From Lama guanicoe (lineage: Eukaryota): 61,257 nt of DNA. Made by a program: the position numbers and the translations under genes. Positions 4,287 to 61,257 of the stretch are shown piece after piece (the first letter of the stretch is position 1; each line of letters starts with the position of its first letter). Location of the stretch: NCBI GenBank assembly GCA_013239625.1, contig MU053933.1:3525817-3587073 (forward strand), read 5' to 3'. The notes under the pieces are model-generated. The model was not told the origin of the DNA, searched no databases, and saw only the letters and a program-made list of their open reading frames with translations.

Positions 4287-4416
4287 GGGGGTGGGTATAT
4301 AGCTCATGTGGTAGAGCGCATGCTTAGCATGTGCGGGGTCCTGGGTTCAGTGCCTCCATTAAAATAAATGATACTAAATAAATAAACCTAATTAACCCCC
4401 CCCAAAAATTAAAGAA
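4287..4416 (+). mobile_element. tRNA-derived SINE, camelid Vic-1-like
   Basis: A-box-like tagctcatgtggtagagcg, B-box-like gggttcagtgcc, tail aaataaataaacctaattaaccccccc; degenerate TSD 4272-4286 / 4417-4431 (12 of 15 identical). Confidence 0.8.
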
Positions 4417-4919
4417 GAGTAGAAAGCTTTATAAAGATAATCTCAAATACTTTCTTTGAGGTTTTTGTTTATTTCTAAACATGTCAATCTGTACGTGCTT
4501 TGTTTTCTGTAATTCTATTTGTAATTTTTTGTGAAAGTATTGATGATGTCTTTGCTTTGATACAATAAATCGAAATTCCATTTGTAGGACTAACTTCTGT
4601 TAGGCTTCTGACTCTTCGAAGGAGACCGCGTTTTGTTGCATTTTCTGCCCTTATTTTCTGTCAGTGAAGACTCTCATCTTGTAGACTCATGGTGTCTGCA
4701 GGTTTGTGGGAAACTGAACACTCCTGCCCCCCCACCCCCCGCTGCTCAGACCTCTTCTGACGTGTGTGTTCTTTCTTTTCTGTGGTTGCTTCTCCAGCAG
4801 CTGCTGGACGAGCTGGCCCCTTACTCTCAACACGCGGTGTCCCTTCCTTCATTGTTTATTCTAGTACCTGGTTGGTGGTGTTTCTTTCATTTTCGTTTAC
4901 CTTCCCTCTTACTCTAGTT

Positions 4920-7005
4920 TTCAAGGACGAGGTCTTGAACCTCGTTTATTGGATGCACTCCTGAGTATTTTTGGCTTGTTGCACTATTGTAAACAGACTT
5001 AAACTTCTTTCATTATCTAGCTGTTTGCTGTGAGCACACATACACACATGCATGTGTGTCGTTTCTGCGTGTTAACCTTGTACCCTGTTACCTTGCTGAA
5101 CTCACGCGCACTGGTAGTGTTGGGACAGACTTCTGGGGCTTTCTCTGCAGAGGACACACTGCCTGCAAGTAAAGCCCGCCCTGTCGCTTCCAGTCTTTGT
5201 CTTCTCTTCCGTTTTGGTGCTTGTTGCAGGGCTGGCACTTGCAGCGCGGGGTTAAGCACAACCGCTGAAGGCGGCCGTCCTGGCCTCACCCCCTCGCTGT
5301 CCCACCGTGGGGCGGGTGTCAGCTGCCGATCTCCTTGCGGTCCTTCCTCAGGTTGAGGCGGCTCCCTTTTGTTTCTGCTTCCGTCCTCCGACTCTTTGGA
5401 AGTGGTTGTGTTCTTGTTCTCGTTGTCTAACAGGGTGCGTCACACTGGGTGGTTGGGGAGGTTCAGCCAGCCTCGCGTGGGGCAAGCCCTGCTGGGTGCC
5501 GACCGGCGGCTCTCAGTGCTTCGCTGGGGCTGAGCTGCTGATGTTTTTAGTGGATTTCACGTCTGTGTTCATGAGGGATTCCAGTCTGTATTTGTTTTTG
5601 GTGATATTTTATCAGATTTTGGTATGAAGACTTTGCTGGGCTTGTGAACTGAAATTCTCCTACTTTCTCCATTTTCTGACAGAGGTTATTTAAATGGATG
5701 CGATTTTGTCCCTTACATGTTCTGATAGAATGCACACGAAACCATCTGGCCCTGGAGGCTCCTTAGTGGGGACGTTTTGGTGATGAACTCGGTTTCTTTC
5801 TTAGGTATGTGGGTGTTGAGACTTTCTGTTTCAGCTTGTGCTGGTTTTGATAAGTTGCGTTTTTCAAGGAGTTTGTCCATTTCATCCAGATTGTCAAATT
5901 TCTTGGCATGAAGGAATTTGTAATCTTTCCTGTTAACTATTAATCGTATTAACCATTTCCTGTTAAGTCACTGAATACCTGTAAGTTTGGCATCGATGAC
6001 CCTTTTTTCATTCTTACTGGTGAATTTGTGTTTTCTCTTTTTCTGACATCTTCCTATTCTCAGGGTTTATTAATTTTATTGCTGTTTAAAAGAACCAATT
6101 TTTGGCTTTACTAGTTTTGTCAATTTTTTTCCTATTTCTTTGATTTCTCTCATTTCTGTTATTGGATTCCGTCTATGTACCTTGGATTTATTTTGCTATT
6201 CTTTTTCTAGCTTCTTTAGGTGAAACCTTCAGTCGTTAATTTTAGACAGATCTTATTTTTAATATAATCATTTCTTATTGATAAATATTTCAAAGTATTT
6301 AAAAAATCCACAACACAGTAAAATTCCCTTTTCGGGGTACAGTTCCATGCGTTTTGAAAACTGCGTTTCGTTCTGTAAGCACCACTGCAACCAAGACAGC
6401 GCCTTACTGAGTCCCTCACCCAGGAGGCCTGAGCCCTGTGCTGCCCCTTGTGGCCACCGTTCCCCCACCCCCTCCCGCAGCCTCCGATCTGTCTCCCAGC
6501 CCTGCGGCTTTTGCCTTTGCAGGATGCTGTCAGTCACTTAGCACAATGTGTTTGCAGTTCATCCACTAATTCTTTTAATACTTTAATCCGTGGTTTGTGT
6601 ATCCATTCACTCACTGAGGTGTGTTTGGGTTGTTTCTAGGTTCTGACTGAAAGTTATGAGTTGAGCTGCTGTAAACATTCATGTGTAGGTTTTTGTGTGA
6701 AAATAAGTTTTCAGTTCTTTAGGGTAAATACCTGTGAATAGAACAGCTGATTCACGTGGAAGTGTGTGTTTAACCTCAAGAGAAACTGCCTGACTCTGGT
6801 CCCATTGCTCTGCCATCTTACGCCCCCAGGAGCAGTGTGCGAGGACTGCACCGTCCTCGCCAGCACTTGGCGTGGCCAGTCTTCTTCACTGTGGCCGTTC
6901 CCATGGGTGTGTGGTGGGTGTCCTTGGAGTTTTTCTTTGCAGTTCCTTAATGACACCTTACTACGTGCTTGTTTGCCATCCATATGGTGGTGAAATGTTT
7001 GCAAT
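4920..7005 (-). mobile_element. Old L1 fragments (ORF2 and 3' end), antisense to PCNT
   Basis: T-rich L1-like tracts, e.g. aaaccatctggccctgg, tttgtccatttcatccagattgtcaaattt, gctgctgtaaacattcatgtgtaggtttttgtgtg. Confidence 0.7.
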
Positions 7006-7009
7006 TTAA

Positions 7010-7905
7010 AAAAATTTTTTTATTGAAGTCTAGTCAATTTGTTGTACTGTGTTAATTTCAGGTATACAACATAGTGATTCAGTATTTTTATAGATTCTAC
7101 TCCATTCAAAGTTATTACAAAATAATGGTTATATCTCCCTGGGTTGTACACGTATCTTTTTTGCTTAGTTATTTTATACGTAGTAGTTCATGTCTCTTAA
7201 TCCTCCACCTCGTCATGCCCCTCCCCCTTCCCTCTCCCCACTGATAATCACTAGTTTGTTCTCTACATCTGTGAGTCTGTTTTTGTTTTGTTATATTTAT
7301 TCATTTGTTTTGTTTTTAGATTCAACATGTAAGTGATAACAGTATTGTCTTTATTTGACTTACTTTTCTAAGTGTGATACTCCCTGGATCCATCAATGTT
7401 GTTGCAAATGGCAGAGTTTCATTCTTTTTAATGGCTGAATAATATTCCTGTGTGTGTGTGTGTGTGTATGTGTGTGTACACCACATTTTTATCCATTCAT
7501 CTGTTGGTGGGCACTTAGGTTGCTTCTATATCTTGGCAATTATAAATAATACTGCTATGAACATTGGGGTACATGTATCTTTTTGTATTAGTGTTTTTAT
7601 TTTTTTCAGACATATACCCAGAAATAGAATTACTCGATCATATGGTAGTTCTATTTTTAGTTTTTTGAGGAACCTCCTTACTGTTTTCTGCAGTGACAGC
7701 ACCAACTTCCATTCCCACCAACAGTGTAGGAGGGTTCCCTTTTCTCCGCATCCTCGCCAACGTTTCTATTCTGTGTTCTTTTTGATGATATTCATTCTGA
7801 CAGATGTGAGGTGGTATCTTATTGTGGTTTTGATCTACGTTTCCCTGATGATCAGTGATGTTGAGCATCTTTTCATGTGCCTGTTGGTCGTCTGTGTGGC
7901 CCCTT
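7010..7905 (-). mobile_element. Younger L1 3' end nested among older L1 pieces; includes (TG)n at ~7449-7477
   Basis: Poly-T start, then well-preserved L1 3'UTR and ORF2 C-terminus (ccaacttccattcccaccaacagtgtaggagggttcccttttctcc). Confidence 0.85.
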
Positions 7906-8370
7906 TGAATCTGTAGCTTGATCTGGAGAGAACTGACGTTTTAACAATGTTGAGTCTTCTAATCCATGAACATGGTATGACTATTTGTCTTCTTGCAGTT
8001 CTTTCATTGATGTTGTATAATTTTCAATTCACATGTCCTGCATGTATTTTGTTAGATTTATGTCTAGGTACTTAATTTTTTGTGTGGTGCTATCTTAAAT
8101 GATATGTTCATTTAATTTTAAAAAATGCTATATTTTGTTAAATTTGAAATTCTAATATGGTTGATTACATTGATGGATTGTCGAATACTGAACCAGTCCT
8201 GAATCCCTGGAGTAAGCTCCCCTCGGTCATGGTGTATAGTTCTTTTTATATTTGCTGAATTCTATTTACTGGTATTTTAAGAATTTATGCATCTGTATGC
8301 ATCATGGATATTGGCCTGTACTTTTCTTGTGATGTCTGTCTGGTTTTGGTATCAGGGTAAAATTGGCCTG
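7906..8370 (-). mobile_element. Old L1 ORF2 fragment
   Basis: gaactgacgttttaacaatgttgagtcttctaatccatgaacatgg and tggttttggtatcagggtaa are typical antisense L1 ORF2 motifs. Confidence 0.75.
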
Positions 8371-8489
8371 CTTTAGGAAGCAAAACAGTATTGTGACAAT
8401 TTGGCTGAAAATTGTTAACTAGAACGTAGATTGGTTAGAACTTTCTTATTTTTTGGTCACTACAATGATGTAATCTTAACAGAATGGAG

Positions 8490-10492: not shown

Positions 10493-10684
10493 AGCCCAGC
10501 TTCGGCGGACTTGCAGCCTGCCAAAGCCCTGGTGATGCTGAACCGTGCAGGCCTTTGCAAGCAAGATGACGTGATGTCCGTGCTCACGGTCTGCCAGAGG
10601 CTCCTGGAGTCCGAGCTGCTTCTGGTGAAGAAGGAAATGTGCTCGCGCGTGGAGGACCATGGCCACGTGTCCGGAACGGTGAAG
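10493..10684 (+). CDS. PCNT: Pericentrin coding exon (192 nt)
   Basis: Acceptor ttttttctgcacattgcag|AGC; contains LCKQDDVMSVLTVCQRLLESELLLVKKEM; donor AAG|GTGCCT; phase 0-0. Confidence 0.85.
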
Positions 10685-11689
10685 GTGCCTGGCCGTGTTC
10701 AGCGGGTGGGGGCCCAGAGCACGGGGGCTGGTTATGGGCAGAGAACTCCTTGGTGTCACGCACATGGGCTACAGACAGTGACGCCCTCCCCCAGTCTGCC
10801 ACTCGTTGTTCAGATCCGTTTTGAAATTTCCCACGTTTGATTCACCCTCACGTTTCTCGTGGTCTAATCATCTTGTAAAAAATGAGCAGGTATTTTTCCC
10901 TCGTGGTTGATACAGGTGGGGGTCTGACTGGGCCAGGGCTTGTGTCTTGGAGTTTTCCCACGAGGACGAGTGGCCCGCAGCCTTTATTGGCAGCGTCGGC
11001 TTCACCTGAAGGCGTCACGTTTATCCTCTGACCCTCCAGGGTTTTCCCTTCATCTTTTCGCTCTTCCTCCTGGCCAGGCAGAGCAGCGCAGTCTTCAACT
11101 CAGCAGGTTTAAAATTCTGGTCACCAGGACAGAAGCTACAAGAAAGCCGACTTTTCTGTCCCAGGTGGGGAGGCTGCAGTCAGCAGCATCGGACTGTCAC
11201 AGAGCTGAGATGCTCTGAGACCTGACAGGTGCTCGGGTGAGAGCCCGTCACCTGCTGTGTGCACGCTGCGCACTGTGCTCGGGTTCCAGCCTGAGTCCCC
11301 GGGACCCCCTGCGCTGTGCCACAGGCCCCATGTTGGGGATTGGGAGACTGGGGGATTCCGAATCCTGCAGTTTCCTAGAGGACACCTGAATCTGGTTTTG
11401 TGCGTTTATCGGGCCCCTTCAGAAGATATATTCTGTGTGGAGAGAACCTGTTCCCTGACTTCGTGGCAAACTTGTCTCAGTGCCCTGTGGCAGGAACATC
11501 TATTTGGACTCTTAAGGGAAAGCTTAGCCCTGGATCCCAAGAGCTGGTCGCCAAATCCTCAGAAGTCATACACTGACAAGGAAATTCCAAATTCATTTCA
11601 TAAATCACAGTTTTGTTTTTTCCAGTGTTTGCATATAGAACCTTCCAGGCTTTGTTTCCTGAAAAAGTAGGTTTTGACGTGTGTGTGTG

Positions 11690-14600
11690 TGTGGTGAAAT
11701 ACATCTTAATCAACTTGAAATGTATACTCAGTGATATTAAGTAAACTTATAATATTGTGTGACTGTCTGTCTGCATAGCTGTTTTCATCTTGTAAAACTG
11801 CAACTGCCCGTGTGACTGAGCAGTAGCCCCCCTGCCCCCGGTGCCCACCAGTCTTCTCTCTGTTCCTCTGTGAGTTCTGAGATGCTCTAGGAATCTTACA
11901 CAAGTGGAGTCACACAGCGTTTGTCTTTTCACTCTGCCTTATTTCACTCATTATGTTATCACCAAGGTTTATCCATGTCGTAGCATGTGTCAGAATTTTC
12001 TTCCTTTTTAAGGCCGAGTAATACTCCACTGTGTGTATACACCGCATTTTGCTTATCCATCATCTGCTGGTGGACACTGGGCTGCTTCCCCACGCTACCC
12101 GTTGTGAGTCATGCTGCTGTAGACATGGGTGTGCAGATCCCTCTTAGAGACCGTGTCACCTGTCAGGTGTATGCCCAGAAGCAGAGCTGCTGGATCACAT
12201 GGTGGTTCCATTTTTCACTTTCTGAGGACCTGCCATAGTGTTTCCCACTGTGGCTGCACTGCTTTCGTTCTCATCAGAAGTGCGGAAGGGTTCCAAGTTC
12301 TCCACAGCCTCGCTAGTATTTGTTATGTTCTGTTTTTCTGCTGGTAGCCATCCTAATTGTAGTTTTGAATATGCAGTTCTCAAATGATTAGTGATATTGA
12401 GGATCTTTTCATGTGCTTATTGGCCATTTGTGTATGTTCTTTAGAGAGATGTCTATTCAGGTCCTTTGGCAATTTTTGAATCAGGGTGTTTGGTTCTTTT
12501 AATTCTTCTAGGAGTTCTCTCTGTAGTTTTGGATAAATGAATCCCTTATTGTGGTGTCTGATTTGCAAACATTTTTTCTCATTTTGTGGGTTGCATTTTT
12601 ACTCTGGTAATAGTATCTTTTGATGCACAAACTTAAAAAATGTCATGAAGTCTAATACTTTGTTTCCAATACCTTTGGCGTCATATCCACGAAATCATTG
12701 CCAAATCCAATGATGTGAAACTTTTGCCATGTTTTCTCCTCAAGAGTTTTATAGTTTTGGGTCTTACATTTAAGTCTGATCTTTTTCGGTTTAATTTTTG
12801 TATGTGGTGTTAGGGAAGGGTCCAACTCATTCTTCCGCGTGTGGATAATCCAGTACTCCCAGTGTCATTTGTGAAAACAGTCCTTTCCCCACTGAATGGT
12901 CTTGGCACCATTGTCAAAAACCCTGTTCCAGTACACGCTGAGGTTTATCCCTGGACTTCCTGTTCTGTCCCCTGTGTCTGTTTTTATGCCAGTGTGACAC
13001 TGTTTTGATTACTGTAGCTTTGTCAGAAGGTTTGAAGCCAGGAAGTGTAAGTCCTTCAGCTTTGTTCTTCTCTTCCAAGGTGGTTTTGGCTGTTTGGGGT
13101 CCTTTAAAATCCCATATGAATTTCAGGATGGGTTTTTCTATCTCTGCAGAAATGTCTGGAATTTTGATAGAGATCGCGTTGAATCTGTAGATCGCTTTGG
13201 GTAATATTGACATCTTAACGGTACTGTCTTCCAGAGCATAACCATGAGATGTGTCTCCATTTATTTGTGTCTTCCTTGATTTCTTTTGGCAATGTCTGTT
13301 CTTTTAGTGTACGAGTCTTTCACTTGCTTGGTGAATTGTTTGTTAATTTTTGTTGTTGTTTTTGCTATTGTAAATGGAACTGTTTTCTTCATTTTCTTTT
13401 CAGATTGTCCTTGTGCAGAAACGCCGCTGATTTTTATGTGCTGGCTTTGCATCCTGTGATTTTGCTGAGTTGATTTATTAGTTTTAATACTTTGTGGACC
13501 CGTTAGGGTTTTCTACATGTAGGATCATGTCATTTGTGAACACGGATCACTTTACGTCTCCCTGCCGGCGTGGATGCCCTTTCTTTCTTTCTCTTGCCTA
13601 ATTGCTCTGGCTAGAATTTCGAGTGCTGTGTTTAAGAGAAGTGGGCACTCCTTCCTTGTTCCTGATCTTAGGGGAAAAGTCTCCAGCCTTTCCTCAGGTG
13701 TGATGTTCCCTGAGGGTGTCTCGTGTGGCTCTTGTATGTTAAAGTAGTTTCCCTCTACTAGTGTGTTGACTTGCGTGTTTTGTTTGTTTGTTTTAATCAT
13801 GAAAGGGTATTGGGTTTTGCTTTTCAAATGCTTTTACTGCATCAACTGAGAAGATCGTGTGGCTTTTTTCTCTTCGTTTTGTTGATGTGGTGTGTTACAT
13901 CGACCGAGTTTCCCATGTTGAATTTCAGGAATAAACACCACTTGATTACGGTGTATAATTCCTTTAGTATAGTGTTGAATTTGATTTGTTATTATTTTGT
14001 TGAGGAGTTTTGCACAAATGTTTATAAGGGATACTGGTTTGCAGTTTTCATTTCTTGCAGTGTCTTTGGCTTTAGCTATCAGGGTCTTGCAGGCCCCACA
14101 CAATAGGTTAGGGGCATTTCCTCTGCTTCTGTCCTGTGAAAGAGACCCTAAAGAATTGGTGTAACTTCTTCCTTAAATGTTTGGTAGAATTCACCAGTGA
14201 AGTTGTCAGGTCCAGAACTTTGTCTTGTTGGGAGATTTTAAATTACTGATTCAGTCTCCTTTTTTGTCTCTTGTAACTTTTCTTGGTTTAAATTTATTTT
14301 GTCTGATATTAAAATAGCTACCCTGCTCTCTTTTGGTTATTATTTGCATGGAACACCTTTTTCTGTCCTTCTATTTTCAACCTATTTGTGTCTTTGAGTC
14401 TAAAGTGAGCTTCTGTAGGCGGCATATAGTTGGATCATGCGTTTTTATCCGCACTGCCAATCTCTGTCTTTGGAGAGCTTAACCCTTTTACATTTAAAGT
14501 CATTGCTGATAAAGAGCCCTGTACTCTTGTCACTTTGCTATTTGTTTTCTTTATGCCTTGTAGCGTTTTTGGTCCCTCATTTCCTGCATTACCGTCTTCT

Positions 14601-16687
14601 CTTGTGTTTAACTGATTTTTTTTTAATAGTGAAATGTTTAAATTCCCTTCTCGTTTCTCTTTTACAAAACCTAATGCTTATTATGCCTGTATGCCTCAAA
14701 GCATAAACTAATAATTCTTTTAAATTCATTAATCTCTTTATGTAGAAATCATGTGGAGTCACAAAATCAAATTACAACACTACCTTTCAGACTAATAACT
14801 TAGAAAATATTTTTAAAAGATAAAAAAAAATCTTTTAATTCATGATGAAAACAAAATGTGCAGTTGCAAGCCATTGTTACAATGACGTTAGCTTTTGTAA
14901 TTGCCCACGCGTTTTCCTTTACTGAGATCTTTGTTTCTCCACGCAGCTTGCATTGCTTTCTAGGGTTCCTTCAGTTCCCCTGAGGACTCTCTTGAACCTT
15001 GCTCACAGAGCAGGTCTTAGTGGTAACAAACTGCCTCACTTTTGTTTCTCTGGGAATGTTTTAATTTCTGCCCTACTCTTGCAGGACAGTTTTGCTGTGT
15101 TTAGGATTCTTAGTTGGCAGTGCGTTTCCTTTTAGCACTTTGAATACACTGATGCACTGTTCTCTGGCCTCCACAAGTTTCTGGCGGAGAAATCTGTTGA
15201 TCTTACTGAGGTTCTTTTGCATGTGGCAAGTCAGTTTTCAACATTCTCTCTTTATCTTTGGCTTGTTTGTAAGTTTGATTACGATGTGTCTTGGCAGTGG
15301 CCTCTCAGTTCATCTTTCTTCGAGTTTGTGGAGTTTCCTGGATATTTATGTTCATATCTTTCATCACATTTGGAAAGTTTTCGTTCACTGTATCGTCGTA
15401 TTTTCTCTTTGCCTCTTTCTCTCTTCCTTCTCCTTCTGGGACTCCCATTATGCATGTGTTGGTTTGTTTGGTGCTGTCTCACAGGTCCCATAGGCTCCAT
15501 TTACTTCTCCCAATCTTTTTTTTTCTTTTCCTTAGATTTGATAATTTCCTTTGTTCTCAAGTTCATTAATTCTTTCTTCTGCCTTCTGAGATCTGTCTTT
15601 GAGTCCCTTTAGTGAATTTTTAATATCAGCTGTTGTACTTTTCTGCCAGAATTTCTTTTTGATTTCTTTTTTCCTTTTTTATTGATATTTTAATTTTGTT
15701 CATACATTATTTTTTGACTTTCTCCACATTTTCCTTCATTCTTTATGTGTCCTTGAATGGCTTTTTTTGAAGTCTTTGTCTGGTAGATCCATCATCAGGT
15801 CTTTTTCAGGGATAATTTTTGTTAATTCATTTTCCTCTGGTTGGGCCGTACTTTCCTGTTCCATTGTTTGCTTGTGACTTTTGTTGTTGCTGTTGAACAT
15901 GGAACCTTTTTAACGTAATAATGTGGTGAATCTGGAGATCAAACTGTCTTTCTCAGTGTTTGCTATTTTTTGTTATTGTGTTTGAGAGTTGGTTTTTTTT
16001 GTTTGTTTGTTTGTTTTGGCTTTTGTTTTGGGGCTTTTTGTTTAGTTTTGTTTTGTTTTTTAGGTGGTTGTCTCTGAGTGAAGGATCAGCCTGGGGTGTA
16101 AAGTTTAGTTCTCAGGGCTCTTCTCAGCCTGTGCCTTTTCCCTAGGCACACACGGGCACTTCAGAACTTCCCTTATATATGCAGTTGTTTTTGAATGTCC
16201 TAGTTTTAAGTTTTTCCCCAAAAAGATAAAAGAGGAAAATGCAATGGTAGGGAAAAAGAGCACTTGCCCTTCGATTCCCCTGGAGGTCACTTCAGCCAGA
16301 GGGGCAGGGGCTGCAACAAAGAGGGGGACAGGTGCAACAGCCATGGCCTCCTGCCTCTTTGTCTGCACCCCTGTGACCAAAAGCAGCAGTCAGAGCACAG
16401 ATTCCCAGTTTTTGGAGGACATGGTCCTTTTTGCCCACCCTAGGCCCTGCAGGTACTCCAGGGACACAGGCATCGTTCCTGCTGGGCCCTTCGATGGAGG
16501 GGTAGGTAGCTGTTTCCCTGCCAAGAGCTGAGAGCAGCTTACCTCCAAGTCTTCCCCTTGGGGGTTGCAAGTCTTTGACAGACCCCAGACTGGCAGGATG
16601 GTTGTATCGGACAGTTCTGCCTGTGCGGGTTGTCCAGGTGGGGAGAGGGATTCCTGGTGCTTCCTGCTCTGCCATCTCTCTAGGATC
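11690..16687 (-). mobile_element. Nearly full-length ancient L1 (L1MB/L1M4-like), antisense, disrupted
   Basis: 3' end ~11690-12300; ORF2 peptides [17 protein letters not shown] (12914-13213), FPLRSGTRKECPL (13552-13827), KPVSLINICAKLLNKII (13834-14103); endonuclease-like 14260-14600; ORF1-like ~14950-15900; 5'UTR-like to ~16687. Confidence 0.88.
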
Positions 16688-16741
16688 CTGGCTCAGCATC
16701 TGAGCAGGGTGTCAGGGGCAGGCTGGGCAGGGGTTCAGGGG
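16688..16741 (-). repeat. Inverted copy of PCNT exon segment 17424-17479
   Basis: 16696-16733 is the exact reverse complement of 17432-17469 (38 nt); extends to 54 nt with 2 mismatches and a 2-nt gap. Confidence 0.95.
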
Positions 16742-16927
16742 AATTAAAACAAAACAGAAACAAAACTGGAAATTGTAGGAGTCTAGAGGGACCCGAGGGC
16801 TCATCATGGACTCTCATCCTTACTTGCTCAGACCCTGAAATTGGCTCATAAGTGACAGACAGACAGACAGACATGGCAGAGTGCAATTTCGTTACTCCGC
16901 TGTGTGTGTGTCCTTTTTTACCTGCAG

Positions 16928-17659
16928 GATAAAGGCGAACTACTGGAAGGTTGTCAGCTTCGGAAAGCTGATCTCATAGCCCAGGCGAGACAACTTCAGG
17001 AGAAGCTGAGCCGTCTGGTGCATTCCATGAGCTTCCCGGACGTCGACGTCGAGACGAAGGGCTTTACATCTCAGTGGGCACTGGCGTCTTCACATGTTCT
17101 AGAAAATAGTTTGAGTGATGGTTCTAGTAACAGTGAAGAAACTGACAGCTCACCTCCCGTCGATGCGTTTAGTGTCGATGCAACCACCTGGGATCTAATT
17201 GACGCGGCTGGAAGTCAGGGTTCGTGGCTGAGAAGCGGGATGCTGGATGTGCCCACGGCAGAGCAGGTTGCTGCACAGGAAGGGTCGCTCTGCTCCCAGG
17301 TGGGCTCGCTCAGGTGCCTCCCAGACCCCGCCCACGCCGAGGGGCCCGAGCCCTTGAAGCTCGGGCTCAGGACAATGGACCTGGCCTCCTGGAGCTCCCC
17401 TGAGGTCGCCAGGAAGGACTCCACCCTTGAGCCCCTGCCCAGCCTGCCCCTGACACCCTGCTCAGATGCCCTGAGCCAGCGTAGCCTGGACACCTCCCTG
17501 TGGGATGGGGCGGGCACCTCACTGCTCCAGGCCGACCAGTCAGGGCTGCTTTGTTACCCGGGCGAGTCCACAGCGGGAACGGCCCCTAGGTGGGCGGAGT
17601 CTCCACTGGCTGCAGACAGGACTCCCTCTACTGACCGCCATGCTCAGCGAGGGGCTGTG
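16928..17659 (+). CDS. PCNT: Large pericentrin exon (732 nt; approx. human exon 30) with separase-type ExxR motif SWSSPEVAR
   Basis: Acceptor cctttttta-cctgcag|GAT; DKGELLEGCQLRKADLIAQARQLQEKL...DLASWSSPEVARKDSTLEPLPSLPLTP...AQRGAV; donor GTG|GTAAGT; phase 0-0. Confidence 0.94.
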
Positions 17660-18534
17660 GTAAGTGGTCTCCTGGGTGCTGTCCTGGTTCGGGTCCAGGG
17701 GATGCCCAAGGCCCCAGCATGTTCCCGCGGGGCTGGCCGGCGGGGTCACAGCTGCAGCCATTGTTGGTTCACCTCCTGATGGGGCCTGGTGGCCAGGCCT
17801 GGGTGGGCATCTGGCAGTCCCTTGGTCAGCAGGTGTGGGATGGTCAGCATCCTGCAGGATGAACCCAAACCGACTGTGATAGGAACATAGAGCACTTCAG
17901 TTGTTCTCAAAAACACTTGAAATGCATTAGCCTTACTCGGAAATGCACAGCAGACCCACATTTCCTGACTCATGGGAAGTATAATCATAAACACATCTTC
18001 ACGTGTGTTCTGCGTAGGGTTCTTGGGCTAGAACATGTCTTTTTAGATTTATTTTCAGTTGCAGTTCATGTTTAGTGAGTTCAACATATAGTCTAATTAA
18101 CTTCAGGAACACTTCCATTTTTTTTTTTTGGGCTAGATTATATTTTCTCTGACATAATTTTGACACTTTGTGTATCTTGGATTAGATAAAGTGGCAGGTA
18201 AATTATGGGGTTTGTGTAATTTAAGGGGTCCACATACTACCATTCATTCCCACATGCTTCCTTCTTTTGTCTGTGTGCTCCTGCAGCAGGCACGACTTTA
18301 AAATATGAAATATTTGCCAGTGACTTCTTTAACATATTCCTAGAGAAATGTGGATGACTTTGACTAAATTATGAGCGTTTAACCTCATGTCCACCAGCTT
18401 TGAACACTTTTTGGGTTTGGGTTCTGTGTGGGAAGATGACAGCCTCAGAACTTAGTTTCCATCTGGCAAGTTGAACTCTGTGACATAATAAGTTATTATT
18501 TTATGACCATTTACAAATCTCCCTATTTGAACAG

Positions 18535-29923: not shown

Positions 29924-30325
29924 CCTGCCCGGTCCTGTCCTGTCCTGCCCTGCCTTGTCCTGTCTTGTCCTGCCCTGTCCTGCCCTGCCCTGCCCACTCG
30001 TGTCCCCTATCCTGCCCTGTCCTGCCCTGCCCTGTACTGCCCTGTCCTGCCCTGCCCTGCCCAGTCGTGTCTCCTATCCTGCCCTGCCCTGCCCAGTCGT
30101 GTCCTGTCCTGCTGGTCCTGCCCTGTCCTGCCCTGTCCTGTCCTGCCCAGTCGTGTCCTATCCTGTCCTGCCTGGTCCTGTCCTGTCTTGTCCTGTCCTG
30201 CCCAGTCCTGCCCTCCTGTCCTGCCCAATCGTGTCCTATCCTGTCCTGCCCTGTCCTGCCTGGTCCTGCCTGGTCCTGCTCTGTCCTGTCCTTTCCTGTC
30301 CTGCTCAGTCCTGCCCATCGTCTCC
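29924..30325. repeat. (CCTGT/CCTGC)n pentamer array with higher-order unit
   Basis: ~400 nt pyrimidine-rich array; TCGTGTC interruption at 29998, 30065, 30097, 30151, 30229. Confidence 0.95.

Positions 30326-50637: not shown

Positions 50638-50691
<54 letters not shown>
50638..50691. repeat. Perfect (CCGCGC)9 hexamer repeat
   Basis: 54 nt counted directly. Confidence 0.97.
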
Positions 50692-50954: not shown

Positions 50955-50966
50955 GTGAGCGCCCGG

Positions 50967-51135
50967 CCCCTCACACCGCGACCCAGGTCCCCGGAGAGGA
51001 CCCCGCTCGACCCCTCACACCGTGACCCTAACCCCCGGGGAGGACCCACCCCCCAGCCCCTCACACCGGGACCCCGGCACCGGAGGGCACCCCTTCGGGC
51101 TCCTCACACCGCGACCCCGCCCCCAGAGGAGCCCC
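50967..51135. repeat. C-rich minisatellite, 4 degenerate units of ~44 bp
   Basis: Core CCTCACACCGNGACCC in units starting 50967, 51011, 51057, 51100. Confidence 0.85.
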
Positions 51136-60130: not shown

Positions 60131-60544
60131 TAACAAGAATGCTGAGGAAGCTTCATATGTACGGCCATTCATTCATCCAAAATAAAACAAAAACAGACTC
60201 AGAGTAAAATTGAGGGACCCTACTAAAAAACATCTTAATGCCCATTTGCATGACACCAACAGCAGCCGTCCAAGGAGGGTGGGAGGGCCCACAGTGTGCC
60301 CTCAGGCACTCTGCTCAGGTGGCCACTGCCAGTGCATTGCAGTGAGCTGGCCAGTGGACGCAGGACCGACATGCTCACTCACAGGTAGTATTATTTCATA
60401 CCTTGAAAACCTAAGTGACTGCTTACTTAACTATCAGAATTAGTAAGAGTTTTGGTTTGACAGAAGATAAAATGCAAGAATCAATAGCTTTTCTCTGGCA
60501 GTGTTTCTGTTTTGTTTTGTTTTGTTGATTAACAAATGTCAATA

Positions 60545-61100: not shown

Positions 61101-61257
61101 GCACATACATTTTTTAATTTACATATAAAAACAACCACAAAAATTAACTCAAAAAGATACATACACCCTGCTATTAACAGCAACATTATTTATAATTGCC
61201 AAGATATATAAGCATCCTAAGTGCACATCAATAGTTAAATAGATAATGGAGTGGAGA

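What the first reader, a model, noticed from the sequence alone, without database searches (positions are those of the whole stretch)
16688..17479. Intronic 54-nt inverted copy of PCNT exon sequence that could pair across a 3' splice site beside the separase motif
Seen: 16696-16733 is the exact reverse complement of exonic 17432-17469 (38 nt). It extends to 16688-16741 against 17424-17479 with one 2-nt bulge and two mismatches. Both mismatches (exon T17427 opposite G, exon G17431 opposite T) would be G-U wobbles in the sense pre-mRNA, so a ~54-bp duplex could form. Its ~680-nt loop contains the polypyrimidine tract and acceptor (16927/16928). The exonic arm encodes LEPLPSLPLTPCSDALSQ, a few residues after EVAR. 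Established: intron-exon duplexes of this size act as ADAR editing-complementary sequences or alter splicing. Inference: editing would recode E>G (17430), S>G (17441), T>A (17453, a TP site), D>G (17466), S>G (17474) or Q>R (17478), or the stem may modulate exon inclusion. The copy matches this species' exon rather than the human peptide I recall (LEPWPSLPVTPHSGALSL), so it is either recent or co-evolving.
Basis: partly seen in the sequence, partly recalled or inferred. Interest (0 to 1): 0.8.

Follow-up and report, generated by a model that had tools for sequence, protein, structure and literature searches.

The report
Exon scrap fused to L1 head
A 54-base piece of a pericentrin exon sits reversed in the intron before it, exactly at the start of an old LINE-1 jumping gene, and is most likely a leftover of that insertion: the RNA can fold back on itself, but camel and llama-type copies show no sign of working as a control element.

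Summary
16688-16741 is an inverted copy of exon 17424-17479 (38 nt exact; 52 Watson-Crick + 2 G-U pairs), present in an independent DNA run and in camel-type runs. That geometry fits capture of local DNA or RNA during L1 integration.

Against an editing or splicing element: camel and window differ at four arm positions, none compensated; two camel-type RNA runs show none of the six proposed recodings (contigs miss minor variants); the acceptor is used, and its predicted accessibility is unchanged.

Two points are open. The copy is closer to the exon (2/54 plus one indel) than the L1's 13-25% decay predicts (P 0.0005-0.2), so it may have been homogenised later or be younger. One synonymous A>G (17464) cannot be assigned to DNA or editing. 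No non-camelid intron could be examined. The scan noted the same arrangement before in another genome (e1-7801558).

Verdict: new member of a known kind; modest interest.

The parts
16688..16741 (-). Intronic copy of PCNT exon sequence (54 nt), inverted relative to the gene and in the same orientation as the L1
   Evidence: only other place in the genome matching it is the exon; present in runs X3 and X17, and 16688-16731 in X19
17424..17479 (+). Exonic source arm (LEPLPSLPLTPCSDALSQ), residues R+4 to R+22 after the separase-site arginine
11702..16689 (-). Decayed, 5'-intact L1 lying antisense in the intron. 5' terminus at about 16689-16691; 3' end approximate. The subfamily label L1MB-like is recalled, from no call.
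   Evidence: 25 of 29 paralogous loci start at this point; ORF2 remnants at 13837-14172 and 12917-13303 match L1 ORF2p residues 501-571 and 812-904, E 1e-12 and 6e-23; 3' part matches dispersed copies at 66-75%
16742..16767 (+). A-rich tract directly after the copy; either pre-existing flank or a decayed poly(A) (unresolved)
   Evidence: no other genomic match for 16735-16930; no significant target-site duplication
16900..16927 (+). Pyrimidine tract and AG acceptor inside the 682-nt loop
   Evidence: spliced to the upstream exon in X15 and X19; predicted accessibility the same with and without the arm
16928..17659 (+). PCNT coding exon (244 codons) carrying the separase site
   Evidence: open frame; pericentrin homologues; RNA contigs 16927-17660
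17411..17413 (+). Arg of EVAR, taken as equivalent to human R2231 (inference from alignment and spacing to S2222/S2259)
   Evidence: invariant in 35 of 35 distinct mammalian peptides; R2231 from PMC4682042 passages
10679..10680 (+). GT donor of the host intron (10679-16927)
   Evidence: loose end of spliced contigs matches the upstream exon

Best explanation
The copy is a by-product of the L1's integration and does nothing selected today. When reverse transcription reached the L1's 5' end, about 55 nt of PCNT sense sequence from 0.7 kb away was copied and joined to it. This happened either by the enzyme jumping to the PCNT pre-mRNA or displaced strand, or by fold-back synthesis on the resected far end of the break. 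Both routes give the observed minus strand: flank, exon 17424-17479 in sense, L1 from its first base. The piece has stayed recognisable because the exon is held by protein constraint and, probably, because the intronic arm was refreshed from the exon at some time by conversion or template switching between the inverted arms. The pre-mRNA can form the duplex and may be lightly edited, but that is incidental. Shown: the copy, the base-precise junction, L1 identity, presence in both camelid lineages, no compensation. Inferred: co-insertion, the copying route, any later homogenisation, neutrality.
For: The junction is within 1-2 nt of the family's 5' terminus; landing there by chance within a kilobase or so of the source is roughly a 1-in-200 event (my estimate). 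Copy and L1 have the same orientation, as template-switch chimeras do (PMC13174262 passages). L1 insertions with local templated or inverted duplications are documented (bioRxiv 2024.08.27.596794; bioRxiv 2024.12.14.628481). Camel-type alleles differ at 16689, 16695, 17435 and 17464 with no compensation, and the exon arm differs at 2/56 against 21/676 elsewhere in the exon, so it is not slowed. The window's three differences lie in the outer 16 positions, about the L1's own decay, around a perfect 38-nt core, as partial conversion would leave; with three events this pattern is only suggestive. Perfecting of inverted repeats by template switching is reported in primate genomes at short range (PMC5453318 passages).
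Against: The copy is too clean for simple neutral co-insertion. The L1 differs from its paralogues' majority at 40/157 (5') and 122/594 (3') sites, giving P 5e-4 for 2 or fewer substitutions in 54 and 0.008-0.02 for 4-5. The two 54-site blocks nearest the junction have only 8 and 7 differences, which softens this to P 0.014-0.2. The copy carries the camelid-only codon state at R+8 (CTG; horse, rhinos and whales have Pro), though this is a hypermutable codon. No target-site duplication was found around the element. Reported templated pieces usually come from within 15 bp of the insertion, not 680. No conversion is visible since the camel split. No non-camelid intron was available.
Confidence: 0.6

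Rival explanations
1. Younger templated insertion. A replication or repair template switch in the camelid stem lineage pasted the inverted exon piece at the head of the already old L1, perhaps replacing its original flank. It is neutral.
For: Divergence dates the copy to about 2.5-3.2 times the camel-llama split (95% range 1.3-7.5), against 16-20 times for the L1 on the same rough clock; the split is 11-25 Mya (PMC4884201 passages). The copy shares the camelid-only codon. There is no TSD and no older remnant homology beyond the arms.
Against: It needs a breakpoint within 1-2 nt of the L1 terminus by coincidence. Such inverted copies are rare: 1 in 184 kb, this one. The dating rests on 3 and 4 events and a constant rate.
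Confidence: 0.2
2. Selected RNA duplex. The L1 insertion created an editing-complementary sequence that has been kept paired with the exon, giving partial recoding (best contexts S>G at 17441 and Q>R at 17478) or tuning splicing of the separase-site exon.
For: The duplex is very stable and less diverged than the L1. Of 6 non-Watson-Crick positions in the camel type, 4 are G-U. The camel 16689 change puts a C opposite A17478, a mismatch ADARs favour (recalled). A>G at 17464, in a CAG context, is the only letter in both camel-type RNA runs.
Against: 0 of 4 inter-lineage changes are compensated. No A>G is seen at the six recoding sites in X15 or X19, although X19 keeps bubbles at 17551-17611 in the same exon. 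17464 is synonymous, makes a CpG, and one such A>G in the arm is expected with P 0.16 from the exon background of 3/136. Acceptor accessibility is unchanged. PCNT is absent from the human recoding tables of PMC8897444, which counts only if humans have the arm.
Confidence: 0.15
3. Separate short retrocopy. An antisense PCNT RNA end with a poly(A) tail was reverse-transcribed from the other side of the break (twin priming) or later, leaving the copy plus the A-rich tract 16742-16767.
For: An A-rich tract follows the copy on the + strand. Twin priming from both ends of a break is a proposed route to L1 chimeras (PMC13174262 passages).
Against: No TSD flanks the copy plus tract, or the whole element. 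No antisense transcript was seen. A-rich microsatellite-like tracts are common.
Confidence: 0.05

Closest known systems
L1 insertions with local templated insertion or inverted duplication of target DNA (bioRxiv 2024.08.27.596794; bioRxiv 2024.12.14.628481, Fig. 4D-E)
   Same: A short duplicated piece of nearby genomic DNA joined at the L1 5' side, inverted relative to its source, with only a few bases of microhomology.
   Different: Those are somatic or experimental and the template usually lies within 15 bp. This one is germline, fixed in camelids, copies coding exon from 682 nt away, and has no recognisable TSD.
mRNA/L1 and U6/L1 5' chimeras (Law and Burns 2026, PMC13174262)
   Same: Non-L1 sequence fused in sense to the 5' end of a near full-length L1.
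   Different: Of their 17 mRNA/lncRNA cases, 15 map to transcript starts, several end at splice donors, and the examples carry TSDs. Here the piece is mid-exon, has no splice boundary, and comes from the host gene itself. PCNT is not in the text or 6 supplements.
Exon-intron editing-complementary sequences (GRIA2 Q/R type; recalled)
   Same: Intronic arm able to pair with a coding exon in the pre-mRNA.
   Different: Known ECSs are conserved with compensation and produce measurable recoding. Neither was found here.
Inverted repeats created or perfected by template switching (PMC5453318)
   Same: Near-perfect inverted arms without invoking selection.
   Different: Those events are short-range (tens of bases). 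The spacer here is 682 nt.

Membership tests
L1 5' chimera / L1-associated templated duplication | Adjacent element is an L1 | tested here: met
   ORF2p matches at E 1e-12 and 6e-23, collinear on the minus strand; Pfam gave 0 families for these fragments
L1 5' chimera / L1-associated templated duplication | Foreign piece joined directly to the L1 5' end | tested here: met
   Junction within 1-2 nt of the terminus shown by 25 paralogues
L1 5' chimera / L1-associated templated duplication | Identifiable source of the piece | tested here: met
   The only other genomic match is the exon 682 nt away
L1 5' chimera / L1-associated templated duplication | Target-site duplication enclosing piece and L1 | tested here: inconclusive
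   Best candidate matched by 1076 of 2000 shuffles; at this decay a TSD may be unreadable, and resection can remove it
L1 5' chimera / L1-associated templated duplication | Piece and L1 arrived at the same time (same species distribution) | not testable with these tools
   Both are in both camelid lineages; no outgroup DNA; divergence suggests the piece is younger or was refreshed
ADAR editing-complementary sequence | Stable exon-intron duplex | tested here: met
   (prediction only)
ADAR editing-complementary sequence | A-to-G in RNA against matched DNA in the exon arm | tested here: inconclusive
   None at six recoding sites in 2 of 2 RNA contig sets; one synonymous A>G at 17464 without matched DNA; contigs drop rare variants
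ADAR editing-complementary sequence | Compensatory conservation of pairing | tested here: not met
   0 of 4 camel/window differences compensated; two become mismatches, two G-U; small numbers
ADAR editing-complementary sequence | Loss of editing on deleting the arm, rescue by compensation | not testable with these tools
   needs a minigene
Splicing-regulatory long-range RNA structure | Changes splice-site accessibility or exon inclusion | tested here: inconclusive
   Predicted accessibility unchanged; acceptor used; skipping could not be seen because flanking exons were outside the laid stretch

The most novel reading that the evidence does not exclude
An L1 insertion copied a piece of its host's exon into the neighbouring intron early in placental evolution, and the copy has since tracked each lineage's own exon, by exon-to-intron conversion or by selection on the duplex. 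A retrotransposon would then have made an editing-complementary element next to the pericentrin separase site in one step.
Probability: 0.15. Interest if true: 0.75.

Novelty: new member of a known kind. Interest (0 to 1): 0.33.

Why it matters
If neutral, it is a clean germline fossil of templated capture at an L1 5' junction, with the source still intact 0.7 kb away. It also gives a natural test of whether 54-bp inverted arms are homogenised over evolutionary time. If the copy proves older than camelids yet matches each species' exon, it would show exon-intron concerted evolution. It would then offer a testable route by which editing-complementary sequences arise, at an exon that controls centriole disengagement. 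I found no paper on this feature in three targeted searches; the library lacks most subscription journals.

Tried and rejected
Assembly artefact: rejected.

Chance match: rejected.

The copy being part of the L1 family: rejected. None of 25 paralogues has it upstream (scores 8-14 against 89), and it occurs only twice in the genome.

Local capture at other L1 heads of this family: 0 of 25 (scores up to 27 against 89). Old captures would be too decayed to see.

Target-site duplication, and a longer decayed duplication beyond the arms: not found (1076 of 2000 and 361 of 1000 shuffles did as well).

Outgroup intron DNA: two metagenome scans found nothing (221 pattern matches, 0 confirmed; 0).

Known RNA families: 0 in the window. 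Pfam on the ORF2 fragments and the exon: 0 of 3.

Look-alikes among earlier findings by place or sequence: 0, and 0 for a longer protein including the conserved C-terminal domain, so these blanks say nothing on how close the other genome is.

Supplement file 5 of PMC8897444 gave 0 for PCNT and 0 for the control COG3, so it is uninformative; file 4 is unreadable. Supplements of the two bioRxiv preprints could not be seen and may hold template distances that bear on the mechanism.

The background for inverted copies is limited to 184 kb of mostly L1-centred 3-kb loci, too little for a genome-wide rate.

Full report
Observation. The inverted match is exactly as described. 16696-16733 equals the reverse complement of 17432-17469, and the next longest exact inverted match in the window is 24 nt. 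The extended arms 16688-16741 and 17424-17479 give 52 Watson-Crick pairs, 2 G-U pairs and a 2-nt bulge, with no similarity beyond either end. The duplex is predicted at -124.5 kcal/mol with mean pair probability 0.99, and the region folds with z -9.5. The exon is PCNT.

It is real DNA. Of 24 listed runs, 14 hold 95-98% of the sampled words; two of these may be the window's source. I laid 4 of the 24. X3 has contigs 16500-16725, 16704-17461 and 17440-17800, which cross both junctions of the copy, and the 38-nt core forms its own contig at about double depth, as a two-copy repeat should. X17 spans 16500-16873 in one piece. All four runs are contigs; no raw or long reads were seen.

Upstream of the copy lies an antisense L1. 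Two broken frames match L1 ORF2p residues 501-571 and 812-904 in collinear order. A genome search with 16560-16760 finds dispersed copies that begin where the PCNT piece ends, while the piece itself matches only the exon. Of 29 non-redundant paralogous loci, 25 anchor at this 5' end. Their column agreement rises from about 0.4 to 0.6 or more at 16690, and the window follows the majority at 16689-16685. The exon piece therefore overlaps the L1's terminal 1-2 bases. On the minus strand the order is flank, PCNT 17424-17479 in sense, L1 from its start. None of the 25 paralogues has such a piece. The label L1MB-like is my recall of the 3' end and comes from no call; PMC13174262 (section 9) places L1MB2 in all sampled placentals except Xenarthra and Afrotheria.

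Mechanism. Two published routes fit this geometry. One is a template switch of the reverse transcriptase at the end of the L1 RNA, which gives same-orientation chimeras (PMC13174262 passages); the PCNT pre-mRNA would be at hand at the locus (inference). The other is fold-back synthesis on the resected reciprocal end of the L1-made break, which gives an inverted duplication of nearby DNA with about 2 bp of homology (bioRxiv 2024.12.14.628481 passages). A tumour survey found 22 templated insertions, typically under 250 bp and within 15 bp of the site (bioRxiv 2024.08.27.596794 passages), so 682 nt is unusually far. I found no TSD.

Camel comparison. X15 and X19 carry 17435 C>A, which gives the EPMPS of Camelus ferus, so I treat them and X17 (same organism label and intron alleles as X19) as camel type and the window as a South American camelid. 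The copy is in both lineages. The arms differ at 16689 and 16695 (intron) and 17435 and 17464 (exon), and no partner position changed: two pairs become mismatches and two G-U. Position 16730 is one base from the end of X19's contig but well inside X17's. The exon arm differs at 2/56 and the rest of the exon at 21/676, so the arm is not slowed. Four events are few, but they point away from co-evolution since the split (11-25 Mya; PMC4884201 passages).

Editing and splicing. X15 (word depth 169) and X19 (98) show no A>G at 17430, 17441, 17453, 17466, 17474 or 17478. X19 does keep bubbles at 17551-17611, so common variants can survive in it (5 pieces were not displayed). Minor editing would be lost in contigs. 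The one A>G in the arm, 17464, is synonymous and creates a CpG, and its background expectation is P 0.16. Among the 22 listed exon differences, 4 are A>G and 7 G>A. No camel DNA covers 17464, so editing there is not excluded. Four of the six proposed recoding adenosines follow a G, a poor ADAR context (recalled). The stem encloses the acceptor without pairing it: mean unpaired probability at 16900-16930 is 0.368 with and without the arm, and both RNA runs splice there. Exon skipping could not be seen with the stretch laid. With human numbering the arm covers residues 2235-2253, which hold none of the nine PLK1 sites needed for cleavage (PMC4682042 passages). PCNT has no entry in the readable supplements of the human recoding atlas PMC8897444, which include its gene-named table of about 1,500 sites.

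The unresolved point is age. The L1 differs from its paralogues' majority at 40/157 sites at the 5' end and 122/594 at the 3' end, and at 71/291 in a longer alignment, where the longest unbroken run is 19 and the best 54-site run has 6 differences. The copy has 2 substitutions and one indel against the window's exon, and 5 and one against the camel's. At 20.5% decay the probabilities are 5e-4 (2 or fewer), 0.008 (4) and 0.023 (5); at the 14% seen next to the junction they are 0.014, 0.11 and 0.21. Exon-side change would lower these somewhat, and the fact that the feature was noticed for its identity would raise them. The paralogues were found by similarity to the window's 5' tip, which biases the nearest blocks low. 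A rough clock puts the copy at 2.5-3.2 times the camelid split and the L1 at 16-20 times. The copy also has the camelid-only codon at R+8, where 35 distinct peptides from 124 of 127 proteins show at least eight different residues, so parallel change is possible. Either the copy came with the L1 and was lucky or later refreshed, or it is younger and sits at the L1 head by chance, or it was selected. Only non-camelid introns can decide, and two scans found none.

Earlier finding. Note e1-7801558 describes a 52-base PCNT exon piece at the head of an old L1 in another genome. I had reached the L1 reading before seeing it. It is an unchecked AI note. The camel-type arm trimmed at 16689 would be 52 nt, so it may add no new lineage; if it is a non-camelid, the novel case gains much.

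Literature seen. PMC13174262: outline, passages, sections 9 and 13, supplement search. PMC4682042, PMC5453318, PMC4884201 and the two bioRxiv preprints: passages. PMC8897444: search listing and supplement searches. Searches for PCNT with editing terms (0 PCNT occurrences in the 20 listed of 34 papers), PCNT with RNA editing and camel (0 papers), and pericentrin with LINE-1, intron, inverted and dsRNA (0 papers) found no description of this feature.

Verdict. The feature is real, fixed in camelids, and best read as an L1 junction capture of host exon sequence with no present sign of function (0.6). Rivals are a younger templated insertion (0.2), a selected duplex (0.15) and a separate retrocopy (0.05). 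Novelty: new member of a known kind. Interest 0.33.

Noticed in passing
window 17100-17560: One contig in run X19 (depth 32 against 98 for the through path) joins 17100 to 17560, an in-frame 459-nt skip that would remove the separase site and the arm. The ends are non-canonical (AG..CC), the short side is 21 nt, the letters between are unknown, and X15 lacks it. Probably an artefact.
   Followed up: partly
window 17384-17386: Both camelid peptides have Ala at R-9, where 33 of 35 distinct mammalian peptides have Ser. By spacing this is human S2222, one of nine PLK1 sites near the cleavage site, so camelids seem to have lost that site.
   Followed up: partly
window 17464: Synonymous A>G in both camel-type RNA runs, CAG context, inside the duplex; genomic allele or editing not resolved.
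   Followed up: partly
window 16381-16700: The L1 copy shows more AT-to-GC than GC-to-AT changes against its paralogues' majority (38 against 23), as GC-biased conversion in a GC-rich region would give.
   Followed up: no
window 4288-4410: Short tRNA-like SINE with an A-rich tail, resembling the camelid Vic-1 SINE (label recalled; sequence).
   Followed up: no
window 4800-8400: Further decayed antisense L1-like pieces in an upstream intron; 7527-7550 and 7272-7289 have inverted matches at 61185-61208 and 60184-60201.
   Followed up: no
window 29924-30303: Intronic CCTGT-type tandem array of about 76 copies, 71% matches.
   Followed up: no
window 50638-50691 and 50960-51074: Perfect (CCGCGC)9 repeat and a 44-nt unit array in a GC-rich stretch, probably the promoter region of the next gene (DIP2A by recalled synteny).
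   Followed up: no
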